Source: a virus
Taxonomy: Duplodnaviria; Heunggongvirae; Uroviricota; Caudoviricetes
Virus record (IMG/VR): IMGVR_UViG_2541047960_000003
DNA: 26,163 nucleotides
Strand: one strand, 5' to 3'
Part shown: piece by piece, positions 22,145-26,163 of the stretch
Layout of the letters: the number at the start of each line of letters is the position of its first letter
Numbering within the stretch: the stretch's first letter is position 1
Program-made: the position numbers and the translations under genes
The notes under the pieces: generated by a model
The model's database searches: none
The model's input: the letters and a program-made list of their open reading frames with translations, nothing else
What the model was told of the DNA's origin: nothing

Positions 22145-22621
22145 ATGACGCACACACTGAATCCGGTCATCACTGTCACTGTGTCCGGTCCTGTGGGCAG
22201 CGGTAAAAGTTACGTACTGGCGCGGATAGAAGAGATGGTGAAACAGGAACTCGGAAACAGCGTCATTGTCGATGCTGCTGACGTGGAGAATGAGCGCCGT
22301 ATGAATGGCGAAGATCTGACGACCTGGCAGAAGCCACGGGGTGGCACAGTGATCAGGCTAGAGGAATACACGGGACAGGGCCTGTTGTCATACGGCGAGG
22401 AGCGTATCTGTCGGACGAATGAGCTGCTGGATGTTATATGCCCCACGGGCCGGCAACCCTGGATACTGCCCGATGCACTGCATGCCACCATTGCGGCACT
22501 GATGACAGTTTACGATCAGGAGCTGCTCATGAAGGAGTTACGTAAACTCACCGGTCAGCCAACAGAATGTTGTTCGTCTCCGAAGTACGGCAAACAGGAA
22601 AACGCCCCGGATAATCCTTAA
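22145..22621 (+). CDS. small P-loop (Walker A) protein, possible small kinase-fold protein
   Basis: 158-aa ORF; SD GAGGAG 8 nt before ATG; VITVTVSGPVGSGKSYV Walker A at residues 15-22, then VIVDAAD acidic motif about 20 residues later. Confidence 0.5.
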   Translation: MTHTLNPVITVTVSGPVGSGKSYVLARIEEMVKQELGNSVIVDAADVENERRMNGEDLTTWQKPRGGTVIRLEEYTGQGLLSYGEERICRTNELLDVICPTGRQPWILPDALHATIAALMTVYDQELLMKELRKLTGQPTECCSSPKYGKQENAPDNP

Positions 22622-23330: not shown

Positions 23331-24317
23331 CTATTTAAGAATAAAACGGTATTTACTGTCAGGAGTGCTTTGCTGATCAAGTAGCAGTGAACGACATGGA
23401 GCAGTCAAAACCCGAGCATAACTACCATCAGGGCTTATGTTAATGTAACAAACCTTGCCCTTAACACTATAATTTTCGGGGACGGATGCCTTTGCTGATA
23501 CAGTAAATTTAAGGGTATGCCAGCCCGTTTTTTGCTTGTAGCTTGAAACCGAATGGAAATCATCTGAGTACTTATTTAACCCTGGAAACATGCTGCGCAG
23601 TGCGGGGATGGAATCTTCTATTATTTTATCGTTGGTTTTAATGTTAAAAACGCTGGTTTCAGTAGAAGCTACTGCTTTGGCATTTCCCCATTTACCAGCG
23701 AACACAATCATTCCCACGAAAAATATTGCTACAAGAACTAACACTCCCCCCAACACTACTACATGAGGCTTCCGGCTTCTGGTTGGTACAGTTGCGACTG
23801 ATTTTGCACCGCTTTCCGATGGAGGTGATAGAGTTTTACTCTCATCACGAATATTCAGCAGATCATCAAAATAACCAAACACAGCCTGCAACTGCTCTTT
23901 GTCTAGGCCTTTAAGATGGGTTGTACCGAAATGCTTCAGACAGTATCTGTCACGGTCAAGACGATACCCAGGGTCAGTAAGCGCCATTATTTTGCTGACC
24001 AGAAGATTACAGTCCTTCATATTCTGGATCTGTTGTGCATATCTCTGAAGGATCTCAACCGCACCATGATAATCAGCCGCAGTCATTTCATTAACTGTTT
24101 TGGTATTAAGTTTCGTGTGGATCGTCATCCATAGCTCGCGCTTACTTTCCCCCAGATCAACCAATTCATCCATCAATCTGTGTAAATCGCGTTTTTGCAG
24201 CAACGAAATTGGTTGCTGGGCCGAAGGAAGTATGTCAGCAGAATAGTTATGAATGGTAACATCACCGCTGACAACGTTACCCACATCCCCGTTAACTGTT
24301 TGCTTCTCTTTACTCAT
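23331..24317 (-). CDS. single-pass membrane protein of unknown function, translationally coupled to the repressor
   Basis: 328-aa ORF; ATG at 24315-24317 overlaps repressor stop (ATGA); ~190-aa N-terminal domain, one TM (HVVVLGGVLVLVAIFFVGMIVFAG), ~115-aa C-terminal domain. Confidence 0.55.
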   Translation of the reverse strand: MSKEKQTVNGDVGNVVSGDVTIHNYSADILPSAQQPISLLQKRDLHRLMDELVDLGESKRELWMTIHTKLNTKTVNEMTAADYHGAVEILQRYAQQIQNMKDCNLLVSKIMALTDPGYRLDRDRYCLKHFGTTHLKGLDKEQLQAVFGYFDDLLNIRDESKTLSPPSESGAKSVATVPTRSRKPHVVVLGGVLVLVAIFFVGMIVFAGKWGNAKAVASTETSVFNIKTNDKIIEDSIPALRSMFPGLNKYSDDFHSVSSYKQKTGWHTLKFTVSAKASVPENYSVKGKVCYINISPDGSYARVLTAPCRSLLLDQQSTPDSKYRFILK

Positions 24318-24775
24318 CTTCTCTTGGTATTTTTGTTCATTATTCCACCTGTTCCTATGGTTACGTTACCTTTGATAACATTCCCCAGAACATCTCCATG
24401 AATAACCTGTTCCGCCCGTTCTCTGGAGGAGCCAGTAGTCAAGGCCGACAAAACTGAACCTTTGACCTGTAATGGTGCCTGCCGGTAGTGCTGCAGTAAC
24501 TCCATTTCATCACGTGATAAAGTTATACCTGATGACTCCCCGGTAAGAATGAACTGTACATTGGCCCCAATTCTTGCAAAGGCTGCAAGTAACTCACCTC
24601 CGGGAACAGCAACCCCTCGTTCATATTTCCCCCACATTTCTCTTGAAACGCCACAAAGGGCTGCTACTTCAGCCTGCTTGAGTGATAACCGCGAACGCTC
24701 AGCTTTGAACCGCGACGCGCAAAGAGAATCAAAATTCACATAAACCTCATTGGCAATGAGAACAATAGTTCTCAT
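24314..24775 (-). CDS. XRE-family HTH transcriptional repressor (putative immunity repressor)
   Basis: 153-aa ORF with classic HTH_XRE segment (LSLKQAEVAALCGVSREMWGKYERG); divergent from the early operon across a 50-bp gap. Confidence 0.65.
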   Translation of the reverse strand: MRTIVLIANEVYVNFDSLCASRFKAERSRLSLKQAEVAALCGVSREMWGKYERGVAVPGGELLAAFARIGANVQFILTGESSGITLSRDEMELLQHYRQAPLQVKGSVLSALTTGSSRERAEQVIHGDVLGNVIKGNVTIGTGGIMNKNTKRR

Positions 24776-24825
24776 AATCTATCACATATAAAACAAACAT
24801 CATTGCATCAACAAAGGAGACAACA
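24776..24825. promoter_or_regulatory. divergent promoter/operator region between repressor and early operon
   Basis: 50-bp AT-rich gap containing TCACATATA, ATTGCA and the SD AAAGGAGA for the Ner-like gene. Confidence 0.4.
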
Positions 24826-25014
24826 ATGACTTCCGAACAAGTTAAAAATCTCTTCCGTCAGCGTGGTATCACGTTTACCCGCTGGGCCGAAGAACACGGC
24901 TACAGCCGCAATGAGGTCTATCGTGTTCTCAATGGACAGACCAAAGCTCGTTACGGCAAAGCCCATGAAATTGCCGTAAAACTGGGATTAAAACCCACGT
25001 CAAATGCGGCATAA
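24826..25014 (+). CDS. Ner-like small DNA-binding regulator
   Basis: 62-aa ORF with SD AAAGGAGA; HTH-like TRWAEEHGYSRNEVYRVLNG and C-terminal KAHEIAVKLGLKP resembling the Ner/Nlp pattern. Confidence 0.6.
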   Translation: MTSEQVKNLFRQRGITFTRWAEEHGYSRNEVYRVLNGQTKARYGKAHEIAVKLGLKPTSNAA

Positions 25015-25020
25015 ATTTTC

Positions 25021-25051
25021 CACATATGCAACAGGTTATCACATATTGCAA
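25021..25051. promoter_or_regulatory. direct repeats CACATATGCAA / CACATATTGCAA, candidate operator sites
   Basis: Copies at 25021-25031 and 25040-25051 (19-bp spacing) upstream of the winged-helix gene; related CACATAT at 24783-24789 in the divergent promoter gap. Confidence 0.35.
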
Positions 25052-25066
25052 AAATGGAAATGTGAC

Positions 25067-25375
25067 ATGAGTAAAGTAAATATTTCCAGTTCTGGGACCC
25101 GCATCCTACGTGTACTCAAAGCTCTACGCGGTCATGCTCTGAACGGTGTTTCTAACGGTGAACTGGCATCAGCCCTGGGGGAGTCCCCGGCGAATATCAA
25201 TCGAGCACTTAATACCCTTATTGAAGAGGGACTGGCCATGAAATTAGAGAACGGACGTTTCGCACCGGGAATCCAGTTACTACAGATCGCCATGGCTCAC
25301 AGTCACGAGATGGCGCGTGCACAGGATCGTATTAACGAAATCAACCAACGAGTTATTTCAGGTAGTCGTTTGTAA
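25067..25375 (+). CDS. winged-helix (IclR/MarR-like HTH) transcriptional regulator
   Basis: ILRVLKAL...GVSNGELASALGESPANINRALNTLIEEGLA HTH pattern; start set at ATG 25067 (MSKVN...), since the track start at 25004 overlaps the Ner-like gene and the repeats; start uncertain. Confidence 0.5.
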   Translation: MSKVNISSSGTRILRVLKALRGHALNGVSNGELASALGESPANINRALNTLIEEGLAMKLENGRFAPGIQLLQIAMAHSHEMARAQDRINEINQRVISGSRL

Positions 25376-25385
25376 GGAGTAATCA

Positions 25386-26075
25386 ATGGGACGCACCAAA
25401 TCACCCGTTAACACTGAACTGAATGTTGAGGTTCCGCTGTCAGATAACATCAATGTCAATTTGAACGCTATGACACAGCATCGCATGGAAATTATGCAGC
25501 AGTTTGGTGATGGACTGCCTTATGAACGTGATCGCATTGTTCACGAAGCACGTTTTTATATGGCGCAGAGTGCTGAATCTATGCTGGAAGCGGGTAAGCG
25601 GCTGATCATCTTAAAAGAAAATGAGCCACACGGTGATTTTACAAACATTTTAGAAAATGAACTCGGACTTGCACCACAAGTTGCTCGCCGCATGATGCAA
25701 GCCAGTATGAAGTTTTTGGGAGAAGGTGATGAGCCAACAAAACGCTCAACGTTGAGCGTTTTGGGGAAAGCCAAACTGTACGACCTGATGGTTCTGGATA
25801 ATGAAGAACTTGATGAATTGGCCGACGGCGGCACAGTTGCCGGCCTGACGCTTGACGACGTTGATCGCATGTCAGTACGTGAATTGCGTCAGGCCCTGCG
25901 CGAAGCGCGCGAAACCAACGCAGCACAACAGCGCGTACTCGCTGACAAAAATGAAAAAATAGACTCACTCTCCACCAGACTGGAGAAGAAATCCCGTATT
26001 CAGCCGCCTGAGCCTGATGAAGAGGTTAAGAAGCTGCGGGCGGAAGTGACAGCATTAGCGGTTGAGGCGGAATGA
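25386..26075 (+). CDS. conserved early-region protein of transposable prophages (DUF3102-like by recall)
   Basis: 229-aa ORF with strong SD TAAGGAGTAATCA before ATG; charged helical C-terminus; stop overlaps a following ATG (ATGA at 26072-26075). Confidence 0.5.
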   Translation: MGRTKSPVNTELNVEVPLSDNINVNLNAMTQHRMEIMQQFGDGLPYERDRIVHEARFYMAQSAESMLEAGKRLIILKENEPHGDFTNILENELGLAPQVARRMMQASMKFLGEGDEPTKRSTLSVLGKAKLYDLMVLDNEELDELADGGTVAGLTLDDVDRMSVRELRQALREARETNAAQQRVLADKNEKIDSLSTRLEKKSRIQPPEPDEEVKKLRAEVTALAVEAE

Positions 26076-26163
26076 ACCGCCCCGGGTTTCCTGGAGAGTG
26101 TTTTATCTGTGAACTCAGGCTGCCAGATCATCGTTTCCGATGGAAGCATAATAAGCTTTTTCT

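What the first reader, a model, noticed from the sequence alone, without database searches (positions are those of the whole stretch)
24776..25066. Repeated CACATAT(T)GCAA elements around the early regulatory genes
Two direct copies spaced 19 bp apart lie immediately upstream of the winged-helix regulator gene, and a related CACATAT plus ATTGCA occur in the 50-bp divergent gap between repressor and Ner-like gene. This looks like an operator set for a switch involving three DNA-binding proteins (XRE repressor, Ner-like, winged-helix).
Basis: seen in the sequence. Interest (0 to 1): 0.5.

Follow-up and report, generated by a model that had tools for sequence, protein, structure and literature searches.

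The report
Control sequences flanking a prophage Cro-like gene
The repeated CACATAT/GCAA words are real and lie in the lysis-lysogeny control region of a Mu-like (BcepMu-type) E. coli prophage, but they are pieces of several separate conserved control sequences that travel with one small Cro-like gene, not a shared operator set for three regulators; this is ordinary phage regulatory DNA that nobody has yet characterised.

Summary
CACATATGCAA is at 25021-31, CACATATTGCAA at 25040-51, CACATAT at 24783-89 and ATTGCA at 24802-07. The pair is non-random in the window (0.03 expected).

Comparison with about 130 related prophages splits the motif into unequal parts:
- **Proximal copy.** It is the core of a very strongly conserved junction element, GTGTAACAGRTTATCACATAT. 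Its entropy is 0.22 bits, against 1.17 at third codon positions.
- **Distal copy.** It evolves at the neutral rate.
- **Gap CACATAT.** It sits at +1 of a strong early promoter, TTGGCA-17-CATAAT.
- **Gap ATTGCA.** It lies inside a leader dyad, RCAA-N6-TTGC, conserved from enterobacteria to Pseudomonas and Betaproteobacteria.

All of these travel with the first early gene, a BcepMu-gp16-family Cro-type helix-turn-helix protein that is not a Ner homologue. They do not travel with the repressor, whose likely operator is an immunity-specific palindrome in the promoter spacer. They do not travel with the winged-helix gene either.

No RNA structure is supported. The most likely model is Cro/Ner-like feedback by gp16 on the promoter and leader, plus a junction element that sets expression of the downstream transposition genes. 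What binds the junction element is unresolved. The finding is a new member of a known kind, of modest interest.

The parts
24314..24775 (-). XRE-type repressor gene (153 aa). Its ATG is embedded in the -10 hexamer of the divergent early promoter (CATAAT read as ATTATG on the other strand).
   Evidence: ORF. Pfam HTH_31/HTH_3. RefSeq relatives annotate the same ORF. It is an immunity module: homology to other prophages ends at 24773/4.
24750..24778 (+). Predicted early promoter Pe: TTGGCA, 17-bp spacer, CATAAT.
   Evidence: It is the only sigma-70 match in 24300-25500 (10 of 12). The same -35/17/-10 architecture recurs in enterobacterial, Pseudomonas and betaproteobacterial loci. Function is inferred, not shown.
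24756..24775 (.). Perfect 8+4+8 palindrome ATGAGAAC-AATA-GTTCTCAT in the Pe spacer. It is the likely operator of this immunity type's repressor. A second palindrome, CTCATTG-G-CAATGAG (24746-60), overlaps the -35.
   Evidence: I10; unique in the window. Other immunity types carry their own palindromes at the same place: CTCATAATTATGAG, ATACACGTTTGTGTAT, GTCCCATTTATGGGAC and others. This is the most variable stretch of the cassette (1.5 bits).
24779..24789 (+). It spans the predicted transcription start of Pe.
   Evidence: It is moderately conserved in Enterobacterales (0.76 bits; variants TATCACACAT, TAACACACAT, TATCACGTAT). It is absent in Lonsdalea and Pseudomonas.
24793..24811 (+). Leader element ACAAACATCATTGCATCAA. 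It is the candidate operator of gp16.
   Evidence: Entropy 0.47 bits. ATC(A/T)TTGCATCAC is kept in Pseudomonas, Xanthomonadales and Betaproteobacteria. It changes in lineages whose gp16 recognition helix differs: SRYE, RPSD, TPTD, xRNA, xVNK. It is unique in the window.
24826..25014 (+). It is a Cro/Ner analogue by position.
   Evidence: TIGR04111 E=2.8e-27. phrog_925. No PF13693 hit. hhalign against Mu Ner gives probability 1.6%. AlphaFold model pLDDT 88; best fold matches are 434 repressor, 434 Cro and HigA, TM 0.55-0.62.
25016..25031 (+). Distal copy TTTTCCACATATGCAA. It is lineage-specific. At the same position other genera carry a half-box, TTATCA.
   Evidence: Entropy 1.12 bits, close to third codon positions. 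Alignment A3 shows TTATCAC (Photorhabdus, Xenorhabdus), TTATCAA (Lonsdalea, Brenneria), CTATCAG (Pectobacterium) and TTTTAGC (most E. coli).
25027..25046 (+). Conserved core of the junction element, TGCAACAGGTTATCACATAT (family consensus GTGTAACAGRTTATCACATAT). Box 2, TTATCACATAT, is at 25036-46.
   Evidence: Box 2 has 0.22 bits and GTAACAG 0.45 bits, against 0.27, 0.41 and 1.17 bits for codon positions 2, 1 and 3. It is present in 46 of 46 IMG/VR loci with an adjacent gp16 and 0 of 32 without.
25039..25065 (+). Inverted repeat TCACAT (25039-44) and ATGTGA (25060-65), bracketing the A-rich tract and the GGAA Shine-Dalgarno (25056-59) of the next gene.
   Evidence: Seen directly in the sequence. 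87% of cells are paired in A3, but there is no compensatory change and the value is not above shuffles. No consensus RNA fold. Fold z-scores run from -1.1 to +1.45.
25067..25375 (+). 102-aa IclR-type winged-helix protein.
   Evidence: PF09339 E=1e-6. phrog_1368. It is conserved in nearly all related phages, but is translationally coupled, without any box, wherever gp16 is not the adjacent gene.
25386..26075 (+). DUF3102 gene, truncated by an IS629 end that starts at about 26073.
   Evidence: Pfam. Intact relatives are 303-306 aa. IS629 matches. Homology to intact relatives ends at 26073.

Best explanation
The window's right end is the lysis-lysogeny switch of a BcepMu/B3-type transposable (Mu-like) prophage. 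The repeated words are not one operator. They are parts of three cis-elements that belong to an exchangeable cassette (about 24774-25066) built around the first early gene, gp16, a Cro-type helix-turn-helix protein.

(1) Box 1 (24779-89) is the start site and initially transcribed region of the early promoter Pe. The immunity-specific palindrome in the Pe spacer is the repressor's operator.

(2) The ATTGCA word is part of a leader dyad (24793-24806). This is the most probable gp16 operator. Once the repressor leaves, gp16 is made first and then throttles Pe and the divergent repressor transcription, as Cro and Ner do.

(3) Box 2, with its flank GTGTAACAG, is a sequence-specific protein-binding site at the junction with the next gene. 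It sets how much of the early transcript or its translation reaches the winged-helix, DUF3102 and transposase genes. The most likely form is a second gp16 site acting as a roadblock.

The distal copy is at best a weak auxiliary half-site.

Shown: positions, conservation and cassette linkage. Inferred: promoter activity, who binds, and the direction of regulation.
For: Architecture and gene content. Pe is the only sigma-70 match in the region, and the same layout recurs across about 80 loci.

Immunity swapping: homology breakpoints fall exactly at 24773/4 and 25066/7, and the palindromes differ between immunity types.

Footprint on 56 unique cassettes: box 2 0.22 bits, GTAACAG 0.45, leader 0.47, box 1 0.76, against third codon positions 1.17.

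Linkage to gp16: 46 of 46 loci against 0 of 32. Phages with the same winged-helix protein but another first gene lack all boxes. The element also follows gp16 when a different gene comes next, in L019, L034 and L039.

Leader and gp16: the leader motif tracks the gp16 recognition-helix class better than it tracks overall identity. The gp16 model resembles 434 Cro and 434 repressor, and the leader dyad has the ACAA-N6-TTGT-like layout of 434 operators (the operator layout is from my own knowledge).

The motif is confined to this region of the window. No RNA structure is detected.
Against: Box 2 does not covary with gp16. Lonsdalea has a changed recognition helix, a changed leader and no box 1, yet keeps an unchanged box 2. 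L079 keeps box 1 but has a different box 2.

Pseudomonas gp16 proteins have the same recognition helix but no TATCACATAT anywhere nearby.

Box 1 and box 2 are not dyads, which is unusual for a Cro-type dimer.

The box1-box2 spacing is not phase-conserved. By my own count from the alignments, not from a tool measurement, it is 257 bp in the window, about 259 bp where the junction is 2 nt longer (L002/L003), and about 271 bp where it is 14 nt longer (Photorhabdus).

A similar double box lies near the right end of intact relatives, including phages that lack gp16. This points to another binder.

The covariation between leader and recognition helix could be phylogenetic inertia.

No experimental data exist for this phage group in the searched literature.
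Confidence: 0.4

Rival explanations
1. Box 2 is the autoregulatory operator of the winged-helix protein encoded immediately downstream. The same protein also binds the similar double box just inside the phage's right end. gp16-type phages have the internal site only because they alone have an intergenic gap there.
For: The site lies 20-30 bp upstream of the protein's own start codon. The window's junction element resembles the sub-terminal right-end sequence GATTTTCACATACTGTAAGGTTATTGCATATT (score 28 against 15.2 +/- 2.1, 0 of 2000 shuffles). The 16-mer TTTTCAYATACTGTAA is kept in three diverged right-end types, including phages without gp16. The winged-helix protein is present in all of these phages.
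Against: Phages with a 92%-identical winged-helix protein have no internal site. The recognition helix (SPANINRALNTL) is unchanged in L014 and L015, where box 2 differs, and is changed in Lonsdalea, where box 2 is unchanged. For the commoner L004-type junction the right-end similarity is marginal (p about 0.05). In L019, L034 and L039 another gene lies between the element and the winged-helix gene.
Confidence: 0.15
2. The junction element acts in the mRNA. The TCACAT/ATGTGA stem presents or masks the Shine-Dalgarno of the gene after gp16. A protein or sRNA may recognise the conserved single-stranded UUAUCACAUAU. The element replaces the translational coupling used in phages with another first gene.
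For: The inverted repeat brackets the ribosome-binding site and is kept in 87% of cells. All nine one-sided changes are wobble-compatible. Lineages with a different 3' arm (L002, L106, L110) form a 6-bp stem in a shifted register. Phages without gp16 use overlapping stop and start codons instead.
Against: RNAalifold finds no consensus structure. Single-sequence folds are no more stable than shuffles (z from -1.1 to +1.45). There is no double-sided compensatory change, and pairing is not above the shuffle control. The stem is lost in L034, L038 and L054. No Rfam family matches. A hairpin alone does not explain invariance of the 5' part, GTAACAGRTTA.
Confidence: 0.15
3. The boxes bind a host nucleoid or architectural protein specific to Enterobacterales. 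It shapes the early region and the right end, as IHF does in the Mu operator and enhancer region.
For: Box 2 is invariant across genera while both neighbouring phage regulators change. It is found only in enterobacterial phages. A related sequence sits next to the transposase-binding repeats at the right end. The window's distal copy, TTTTCCACA, fits the DnaA-box consensus TTWTNCACA (my own knowledge, not tested).
Against: By eye, the conserved core fits none of the IHF, CRP, LexA, Fur, Fis or DnaA consensus sequences. These were comparisons from memory, not tool tests. Phages of the same hosts with the other first gene lack the internal site.
Confidence: 0.1
4. One reading: the copies are one operator set read by all three DNA-binding proteins (XRE repressor, the 'Ner-like' protein and the winged-helix protein), as lambda OR1-3 are read by both CI and Cro.
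For: Three to four (T/C)CACATA words cluster in 310 bp around the three regulator genes and nowhere else in 26 kb. The pair before the winged-helix gene is non-random.
Against: The boxes are identical in prophages whose repressors are unrelated, and each repressor type has its own palindrome in the Pe spacer. The boxes are absent from phages with the same winged-helix protein. The distal copy is not conserved. Box 1 and box 2 vary independently.
Confidence: 0.05
5. Box 2, read on the minus strand (TGTGATAAY), is an extended -10 promoter that drives a distal antisense transcript through gp16 into the repressor gene. This would resemble pC1 of the B3-like Pseudomonas phage Fc02.
For: Fc02 RNA-seq shows that in lysogens the repressor is transcribed from a distal promoter antisense to the ner-like gene (PMC9936078). 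In this immunity type only 50 bp separate the repressor ATG from gp16. About half of the lineages read TGTGATAAT.
Against: The only variable position in the invariant block is the one that would be the critical last T of the -10. The window itself reads GATAAC. No -35 is present, and the promoter scan finds nothing on the minus strand.
Confidence: 0.07

Closest known systems
Phage Mu early control region (c repressor, Pe/Pc, Ner)
   Same: A divergent repressor gene faces an early operon. The first product of that operon is a small DNA-binding protein, followed by the transposition genes. A transposase, a MuB-like ATPase, Gam, GemA and Mor follow in intact relatives.
   Different: The first gene is not a Ner homologue: no PF13693 hit and hhalign probability 1.6%. 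The repressor is XRE-type, not Mu c-type. The late genes lie on the repressor side in the opposite orientation, as in BcepMu. No site downstream of ner is known in Mu (my own knowledge).
Lambda/434 OR region (CI and Cro sharing operators)
   Same: A Cro-type fold is predicted for gp16. The operator sits in or next to the early promoter. The leader dyad RCAA-N6-TTGC has the layout of 434 operators. TATCAC is also the lambda operator half-site (my own knowledge).
   Different: Here the repressor's palindrome is immunity-specific, while the boxes and the leader are shared between immunity types. Repressor and Cro analogue therefore do not appear to share operators. The boxes are not dyads.
B3-like Pseudomonas phages (Fc02): pE, pC2, pC1
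   Same: The first early gene belongs to the same family: one search hits the gp16-region homologues of phages Ps59 and Fc22, relatives of Fc02. The pE layout and the leader motif are also shared. RNA-seq shows that pE fires on induction, with the ner-like gene first (PMC9936078).
   Different: Pseudomonas phages lack TATCACATAT and the junction element. Their winged-helix gene lies 0.8-1.7 kb further downstream and is translationally coupled.
BcepMu gp16 family (TIGR04111)
   Same: The 62-aa protein is a clear member (94 bits against a cutoff of 34).
   Different: The family is a 'hypothetical equivalog' with no tested function. The cis-elements described here are not part of any family definition.

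Membership tests
Mu Ner / Nlp family (Pfam PF13693, HTH_35) | Sequence membership in the family profile | tested here: not met
   There is no PF13693 hit at E<=0.01, while Mu Ner scores 1.5e-27. hhalign of the gp16 alignment against Mu Ner gives probability 1.6%, E=0.03.
Mu Ner / Nlp family (Pfam PF13693, HTH_35) | First gene of the early operon, divergent from the repressor | tested here: met
   A 74-aa gene with weak HTH_35 similarity (E=0.007) occupies the same slot in sister phages. This is a non-orthologous replacement.
Mu Ner / Nlp family (Pfam PF13693, HTH_35) | Binds between Pe and Pc and represses both | not testable with these tools
   Needs EMSA or footprinting and reporter assays.
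BcepMu gp16 family (TIGR04111) | Score above the curated cutoff over the full length | tested here: met
   94.4 bits against a cutoff of 34, residues 2-56 of 62.
Cro/CI-type (XRE) helix-turn-helix fold | Four- or five-helix bundle with the HTH at helices 2-3 | tested here: inconclusive
   The AlphaFold model (pLDDT 88) has four helices. The best PDB matches are 434 repressor, 434 Cro, HigA and HipB at TM 0.55-0.62, but Foldseek E>=0.09. HTH_31 scores 24 bits, below its cutoff of 27.
Lambda-type shared operator set (same sites read by repressor and Cro) | Operator sequence co-varies with repressor specificity (immunity) | tested here: not met
   The boxes are unchanged across at least four repressor types. 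Only the spacer palindrome changes.
Lambda-type shared operator set (same sites read by repressor and Cro) | Several copies of one dyad-symmetric site | tested here: not met
   The boxes are direct and non-palindromic. The distal copy is not conserved. Box 1 and box 2 vary independently.
Structured cis-regulatory RNA | Conserved secondary structure with covariation or above-background stability | tested here: not met
   There is no RNAalifold consensus. Fold z-scores run from -1.1 to +1.45. There is no double-sided change in the named stem. No Rfam family matches.
Sigma-70 promoter (Pe) | -35 and -10 hexamers with a 16-18 bp spacer, conserved in relatives | tested here: met
   TTGGCA-17-CATAAT scores 10 of 12. 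The same layout recurs in about 80 loci. Promoter activity itself was not tested.

The most novel reading that the evidence does not exclude
The invariant 20-bp junction element GTGTAACAGRTTATCACATAT and its look-alike just inside the right-end transposase sites are bound by one factor that is neither the repressor nor gp16. This factor physically links the early control region to a phage end. It would be an internal accessory site for transposition, or for silencing of the early operon, functionally comparable to the Mu enhancer but built from different parts.
Probability: 0.1. Interest if true: 0.55.

Novelty: new member of a known kind. Interest (0 to 1): 0.3.

Why it matters
BcepMu-type prophages are common. 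628 of 5426 complete E. coli genomes have a match to this region. Relatives occur across Gamma- and Betaproteobacteria. Even so, I found no experimental work on their switch.

The comparison gives a concrete map that can be tested directly:
- a repressor operator inside the promoter spacer;
- a Cro-type protein that has replaced Ner;
- a deeply conserved leader dyad;
- an unusually invariant junction element that controls entry into the transposition genes.

If the map is confirmed, it would explain how immunity modules and 'Cro' modules are swapped independently in these phages. It is useful groundwork rather than a surprise.

Tried and rejected
- **RNA hairpin or riboswitch-like element.** No consensus fold, no stability signal, no covariation and no Rfam hit. 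Kept only as a weak rival, because shifted stems appear in some lineages.
- **Anti-Shine-Dalgarno pairing.** By eye, the 5' flank of the junction can pair with the ribosome-binding site in several lineages. The register is not consistent and the folds differ between lineages.
- **Second promoter on either strand of the junction.** TCCACA-17-CATATT on the plus strand scores only 8 of 12 and its -35 is not conserved. On the minus strand, TGTGATAAY fails at the key T in the window.
- **Coding constraint.** An in-frame ATG at 25004 would extend the winged-helix ORF. The frame is open in the window and in L004-type sequences but closed and shifted in L002.
- **Host-factor consensus sequences** (IHF, CRP, LexA, Fur, Fis, TyrR, GalR/LacI type, OmpR/PhoB/ArcA repeats, DnaA). 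These were compared from memory only. None fits the conserved core. Only the non-conserved distal copy fits TTWTNCACA.
- **DNA looping between box 1 and box 2.** The spacing is not phase-conserved. This is my own count from the alignments.
- **Box 2 as a transposition enhancer needed by all phages.** Rejected because phages without gp16 lack it.
- **Covariation of box 2 with gp16 or with the winged-helix recognition helix.** None found.
- **Phage ends.** The left end (L173 about 450-525: TGATGCGCCGCGCGATAAATGCA...) carries GCGATAAATG repeats and no box. The window itself contains neither end.

Full report
**What the window is.** Most of the 26-kb window is the late (tail, head, lysis) arm of a Mu-like transposable prophage, on the minus strand. 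The early control region is at the right end.

The genes there are, in order:
- an XRE repressor (24314-24775, minus strand);
- a 62-aa helix-turn-helix gene (24826-25014, plus strand);
- a 102-aa IclR-type winged-helix gene (25067-25375);
- a DUF3102 gene (25386-26075), cut by an IS629 end at about 26073.

Intact relatives continue with a DDE transposase, a MuB-like ATPase, Gam, GemA and Mor, and then the phage end. The nearest named phages are Escherichia phage PhiKM (Bcepmuvirus), Phi06_2974 B and Klebsiella KP12. 628 of 5426 complete E. coli genomes have a match to the region.

**The observation.** The pair CACATATGCAA / CACATATTGCAA is non-random (0.03 expected). The 7-mer alone is at background frequency.

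The gap copy and the proximal copy share a longer exact 10-mer, TATCACATAT. The three best matches to TTATCACATAT in the whole window are the three copies. All TCACATA words in the window cluster in 310 bp on one strand.

**What surrounds the gap copy.** The only sigma-70-type match in the region is TTGGCA-17-CATAAT at 24750-78. Box 1 therefore spans the predicted start site, and the repressor's ATG is the complement of the -10.

The spacer holds a perfect 20-bp palindrome, which is unique in the window. I collected 80 loci encoding relatives of the 62-aa protein from GTDB genomes. They show the same layout from Enterobacterales to Pseudomonas, Xanthomonadales and Betaproteobacteria: TTGACA, a 17-bp spacer with a palindrome that differs between repressor types, a -10, a variable stretch, and then a conserved leader ATC(A/T)TTGCATCAC before the ribosome-binding site. 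In the window the leader forms a 14-bp dyad, ACAA-ACATCA-TTGC.

**Modularity.** Homology to prophages with other repressors starts exactly at 24773/4. Homology to a second group starts exactly at 25066/7. The stretch between these points is a cassette made of box 1, the leader, the 62-aa gene and the junction element.

In IMG/VR loci found with the winged-helix protein, 46 of 46 with this gene adjacent have box 2, and 32 of 32 without it have none. Sister phages (L005, L006, KP12, Phi06_2974B) carry a 74-aa gene with weak Ner-family similarity in that slot. In them the winged-helix gene overlaps the upstream stop codon, and no box occurs anywhere in the region. Where another gene is inserted after the element (L019, L034, L039), the element still follows the 62-aa gene.

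**Conservation.** The 56 unique cassettes give these mean entropies:

| Region | Entropy (bits) |
|---|---|
| Codon position 1 | 0.41 |
| Codon position 2 | 0.27 |
| Codon position 3 | 1.17 |
| Pe spacer | 1.51 |
| Pe -10 | 0.61 |
| Box 1 | 0.76 |
| Leader | 0.47 |
| Distal copy | 1.12 |
| GCAACAGG | 0.45 |
| Box 2 | 0.22 |
| A-tract and ribosome-binding site | 0.62-0.77 |

The proximal copy is therefore among the most constrained sequences of the locus, and the distal copy is not constrained as a sequence. In other genera the distal position often carries TTATCA, about 20 bp upstream of box 2. A weak auxiliary half-site is possible.

**Who might bind.** The 62-aa protein is a clear BcepMu gp16-family member. 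It is not a Ner homologue. Its model has a four-helix Cro/434-like fold, with non-significant E-values.

The leader motif changes in the lineages whose recognition-helix start differs from (S/T)RNE or SREA:
- SRYE lineages have ATAGTTGTAT.
- RPSD lineages have CTTTCTTCGTAG.
- TPTD lineages have TTTATTCGAC.
- xRNA lineages have ATCATTCAGCAAC.
- xVNK lineages have AACTTTCNCAC.

Pseudomonas proteins with the same helix keep TTGCATCAC at about 70% overall identity. This is suggestive, not tree-corrected, evidence that the leader dyad is the gp16 operator.

Box 2 covaries with neither gp16 nor the winged-helix recognition helix.

**RNA tests.** RNAalifold gives no consensus structure. Twelve representative junctions fold no better than shuffles. 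The TCACAT/ATGTGA stem is 87% paired, but without compensatory change and not above shuffles. Some lineages have a shifted 6-bp stem and three have lost it. No Rfam family matches.

**An unexpected relative of the element.** In intact relatives the 160 bp between mor and the right end carry GATTTTCACATACTGTAAGGTTATTGCATATTCC. The right end itself reads ...TCAAGTCTAATCA and is defined by where three phages diverge. This sequence follows a hairpin plus T-run and lies just inside three TTCCCAT-type end repeats.

The window's junction aligns to it far better than shuffles do (28 against 15.2 +/- 2.1, 0 of 2000). It is the best non-self match in 22 kb. The commoner L004-type junction gives only p of about 0.05. 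The 16-mer TTTTCAYATACTGTAA survives in three diverged right-end types, including phages without gp16. I could not explain this. It is the main reason to keep a binder other than gp16 in play.

**Literature.** The only relevant experimental work found is RNA-seq of the B3-like phage Fc02. There, pE drives the ner-like gene first, and a distal pC1 transcribes the repressor antisense to it (PMC9936078). Nothing was found on operators of Bcepmuvirus-type E. coli prophages.

**Verdict.** The best reading is a Cro/Ner-analogue cassette with its own cis-elements: a promoter start region, a leader operator and a junction control element. The repressor has a separate, immunity-specific operator in the promoter spacer. 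The three-protein shared-operator idea is not supported. The binder and mode of action of the invariant box 2 remain open: gp16 is favoured over the winged-helix protein and an RNA-level role, and those over a host factor. The finding is a new member of a known kind, of modest interest.

Noticed in passing
window 26073-26163: An IS629 (IS3 family) end, TGAACCGCCCCGGGTTTCCTGG..., truncates the DUF3102 gene to 229 aa with a changed C-terminus and cuts off the rest of the early operon (transposase, MuB-like gene, mor). This prophage copy is therefore probably defective for transposition and induction.
   Followed up: partly
L169 21938-21980 (E. coli 504838, NZ_CP025856.1), not in the window: A second double box, GATTTTCACATACTGTAAGGTTATTGCATATT, lies between mor and the right-end transposase-type repeats (TTCCCAT x3). 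It follows a hairpin plus T-run. It is conserved as TTTTCAYATACTGTAA in three diverged right-end types, including phages that lack gp16. Its function is unknown.
   Followed up: partly
window 24773-24778: The repressor start codon is the reverse complement of the Pe -10 (CATAAT read as ATTATG). Only 50 bp separate the two start codons, so the repressor promoter must overlap the leader or gp16, or the repressor mRNA is nearly leaderless. A weak candidate on the minus strand is TTGATG-17-TATGTG, which would start at the ATG.
   Followed up: no
L005 1281-1505; L294 981-1205 (KP12); L295: In sister phages the slot of the first early gene holds an unrelated 74-aa protein with weak Ner-family (HTH_35, E=0.007) similarity. 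It has CAATAGA direct repeats at its own promoter start. This is a non-orthologous replacement of the Cro/Ner function within one phage group.
   Followed up: partly
window 24908-24934: Inside gp16, CAATGAGGTCTATCGTGTTCTCAATG repeats the half-sites of the repressor palindrome (CAATGAG ... TTCTCA). It is complementary to 24740-64 (inverted repeats I2 and I5). It encodes the conserved NEVYRVLNG segment, so it may be coincidence or a third weak repressor site.
   Followed up: no
window 25016-25024: The non-conserved distal copy reads TTTTCCACA, a perfect fit to the relaxed DnaA-box consensus TTWTNCACA (from memory). Other lineages do not share it.
   Followed up: no
window 25004-25066: An in-frame ATG inside the end of gp16 would extend the winged-helix ORF by 21 codons across the junction element. 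The frame is open in the window and in L004-type phages, but closed in L002 and L003.
   Followed up: partly
window 23331-24317 (minus strand) and 22145-22621 (plus strand): Directly downstream of the repressor is a 328-aa protein with a partial match to the flagellar regulator Flk (E=3e-12, well below its cutoff) and a C-terminal membrane segment. A 158-aa P-loop-like ORF lies on the opposite strand. These may be lysogen-expressed accessory genes.
   Followed up: no
window 24951-24979: A perfect 9-bp inverted repeat, TTACGGCAA / TTGCCGTAA, with an 11-nt loop lies inside the 3' third of gp16. It was not examined in relatives.
   Followed up: no
L173 449-527 (E. coli 504838): The left end of the intact relative starts TGATGCGCCGCGCGATAAATGCA... 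It carries two GCGATAAATG repeats 24 bp apart, directly followed by a Gin/Cin-type invertase gene. The prophage is inserted in csiE, and ISCro1 copies lie at or near both ends.
   Followed up: partly
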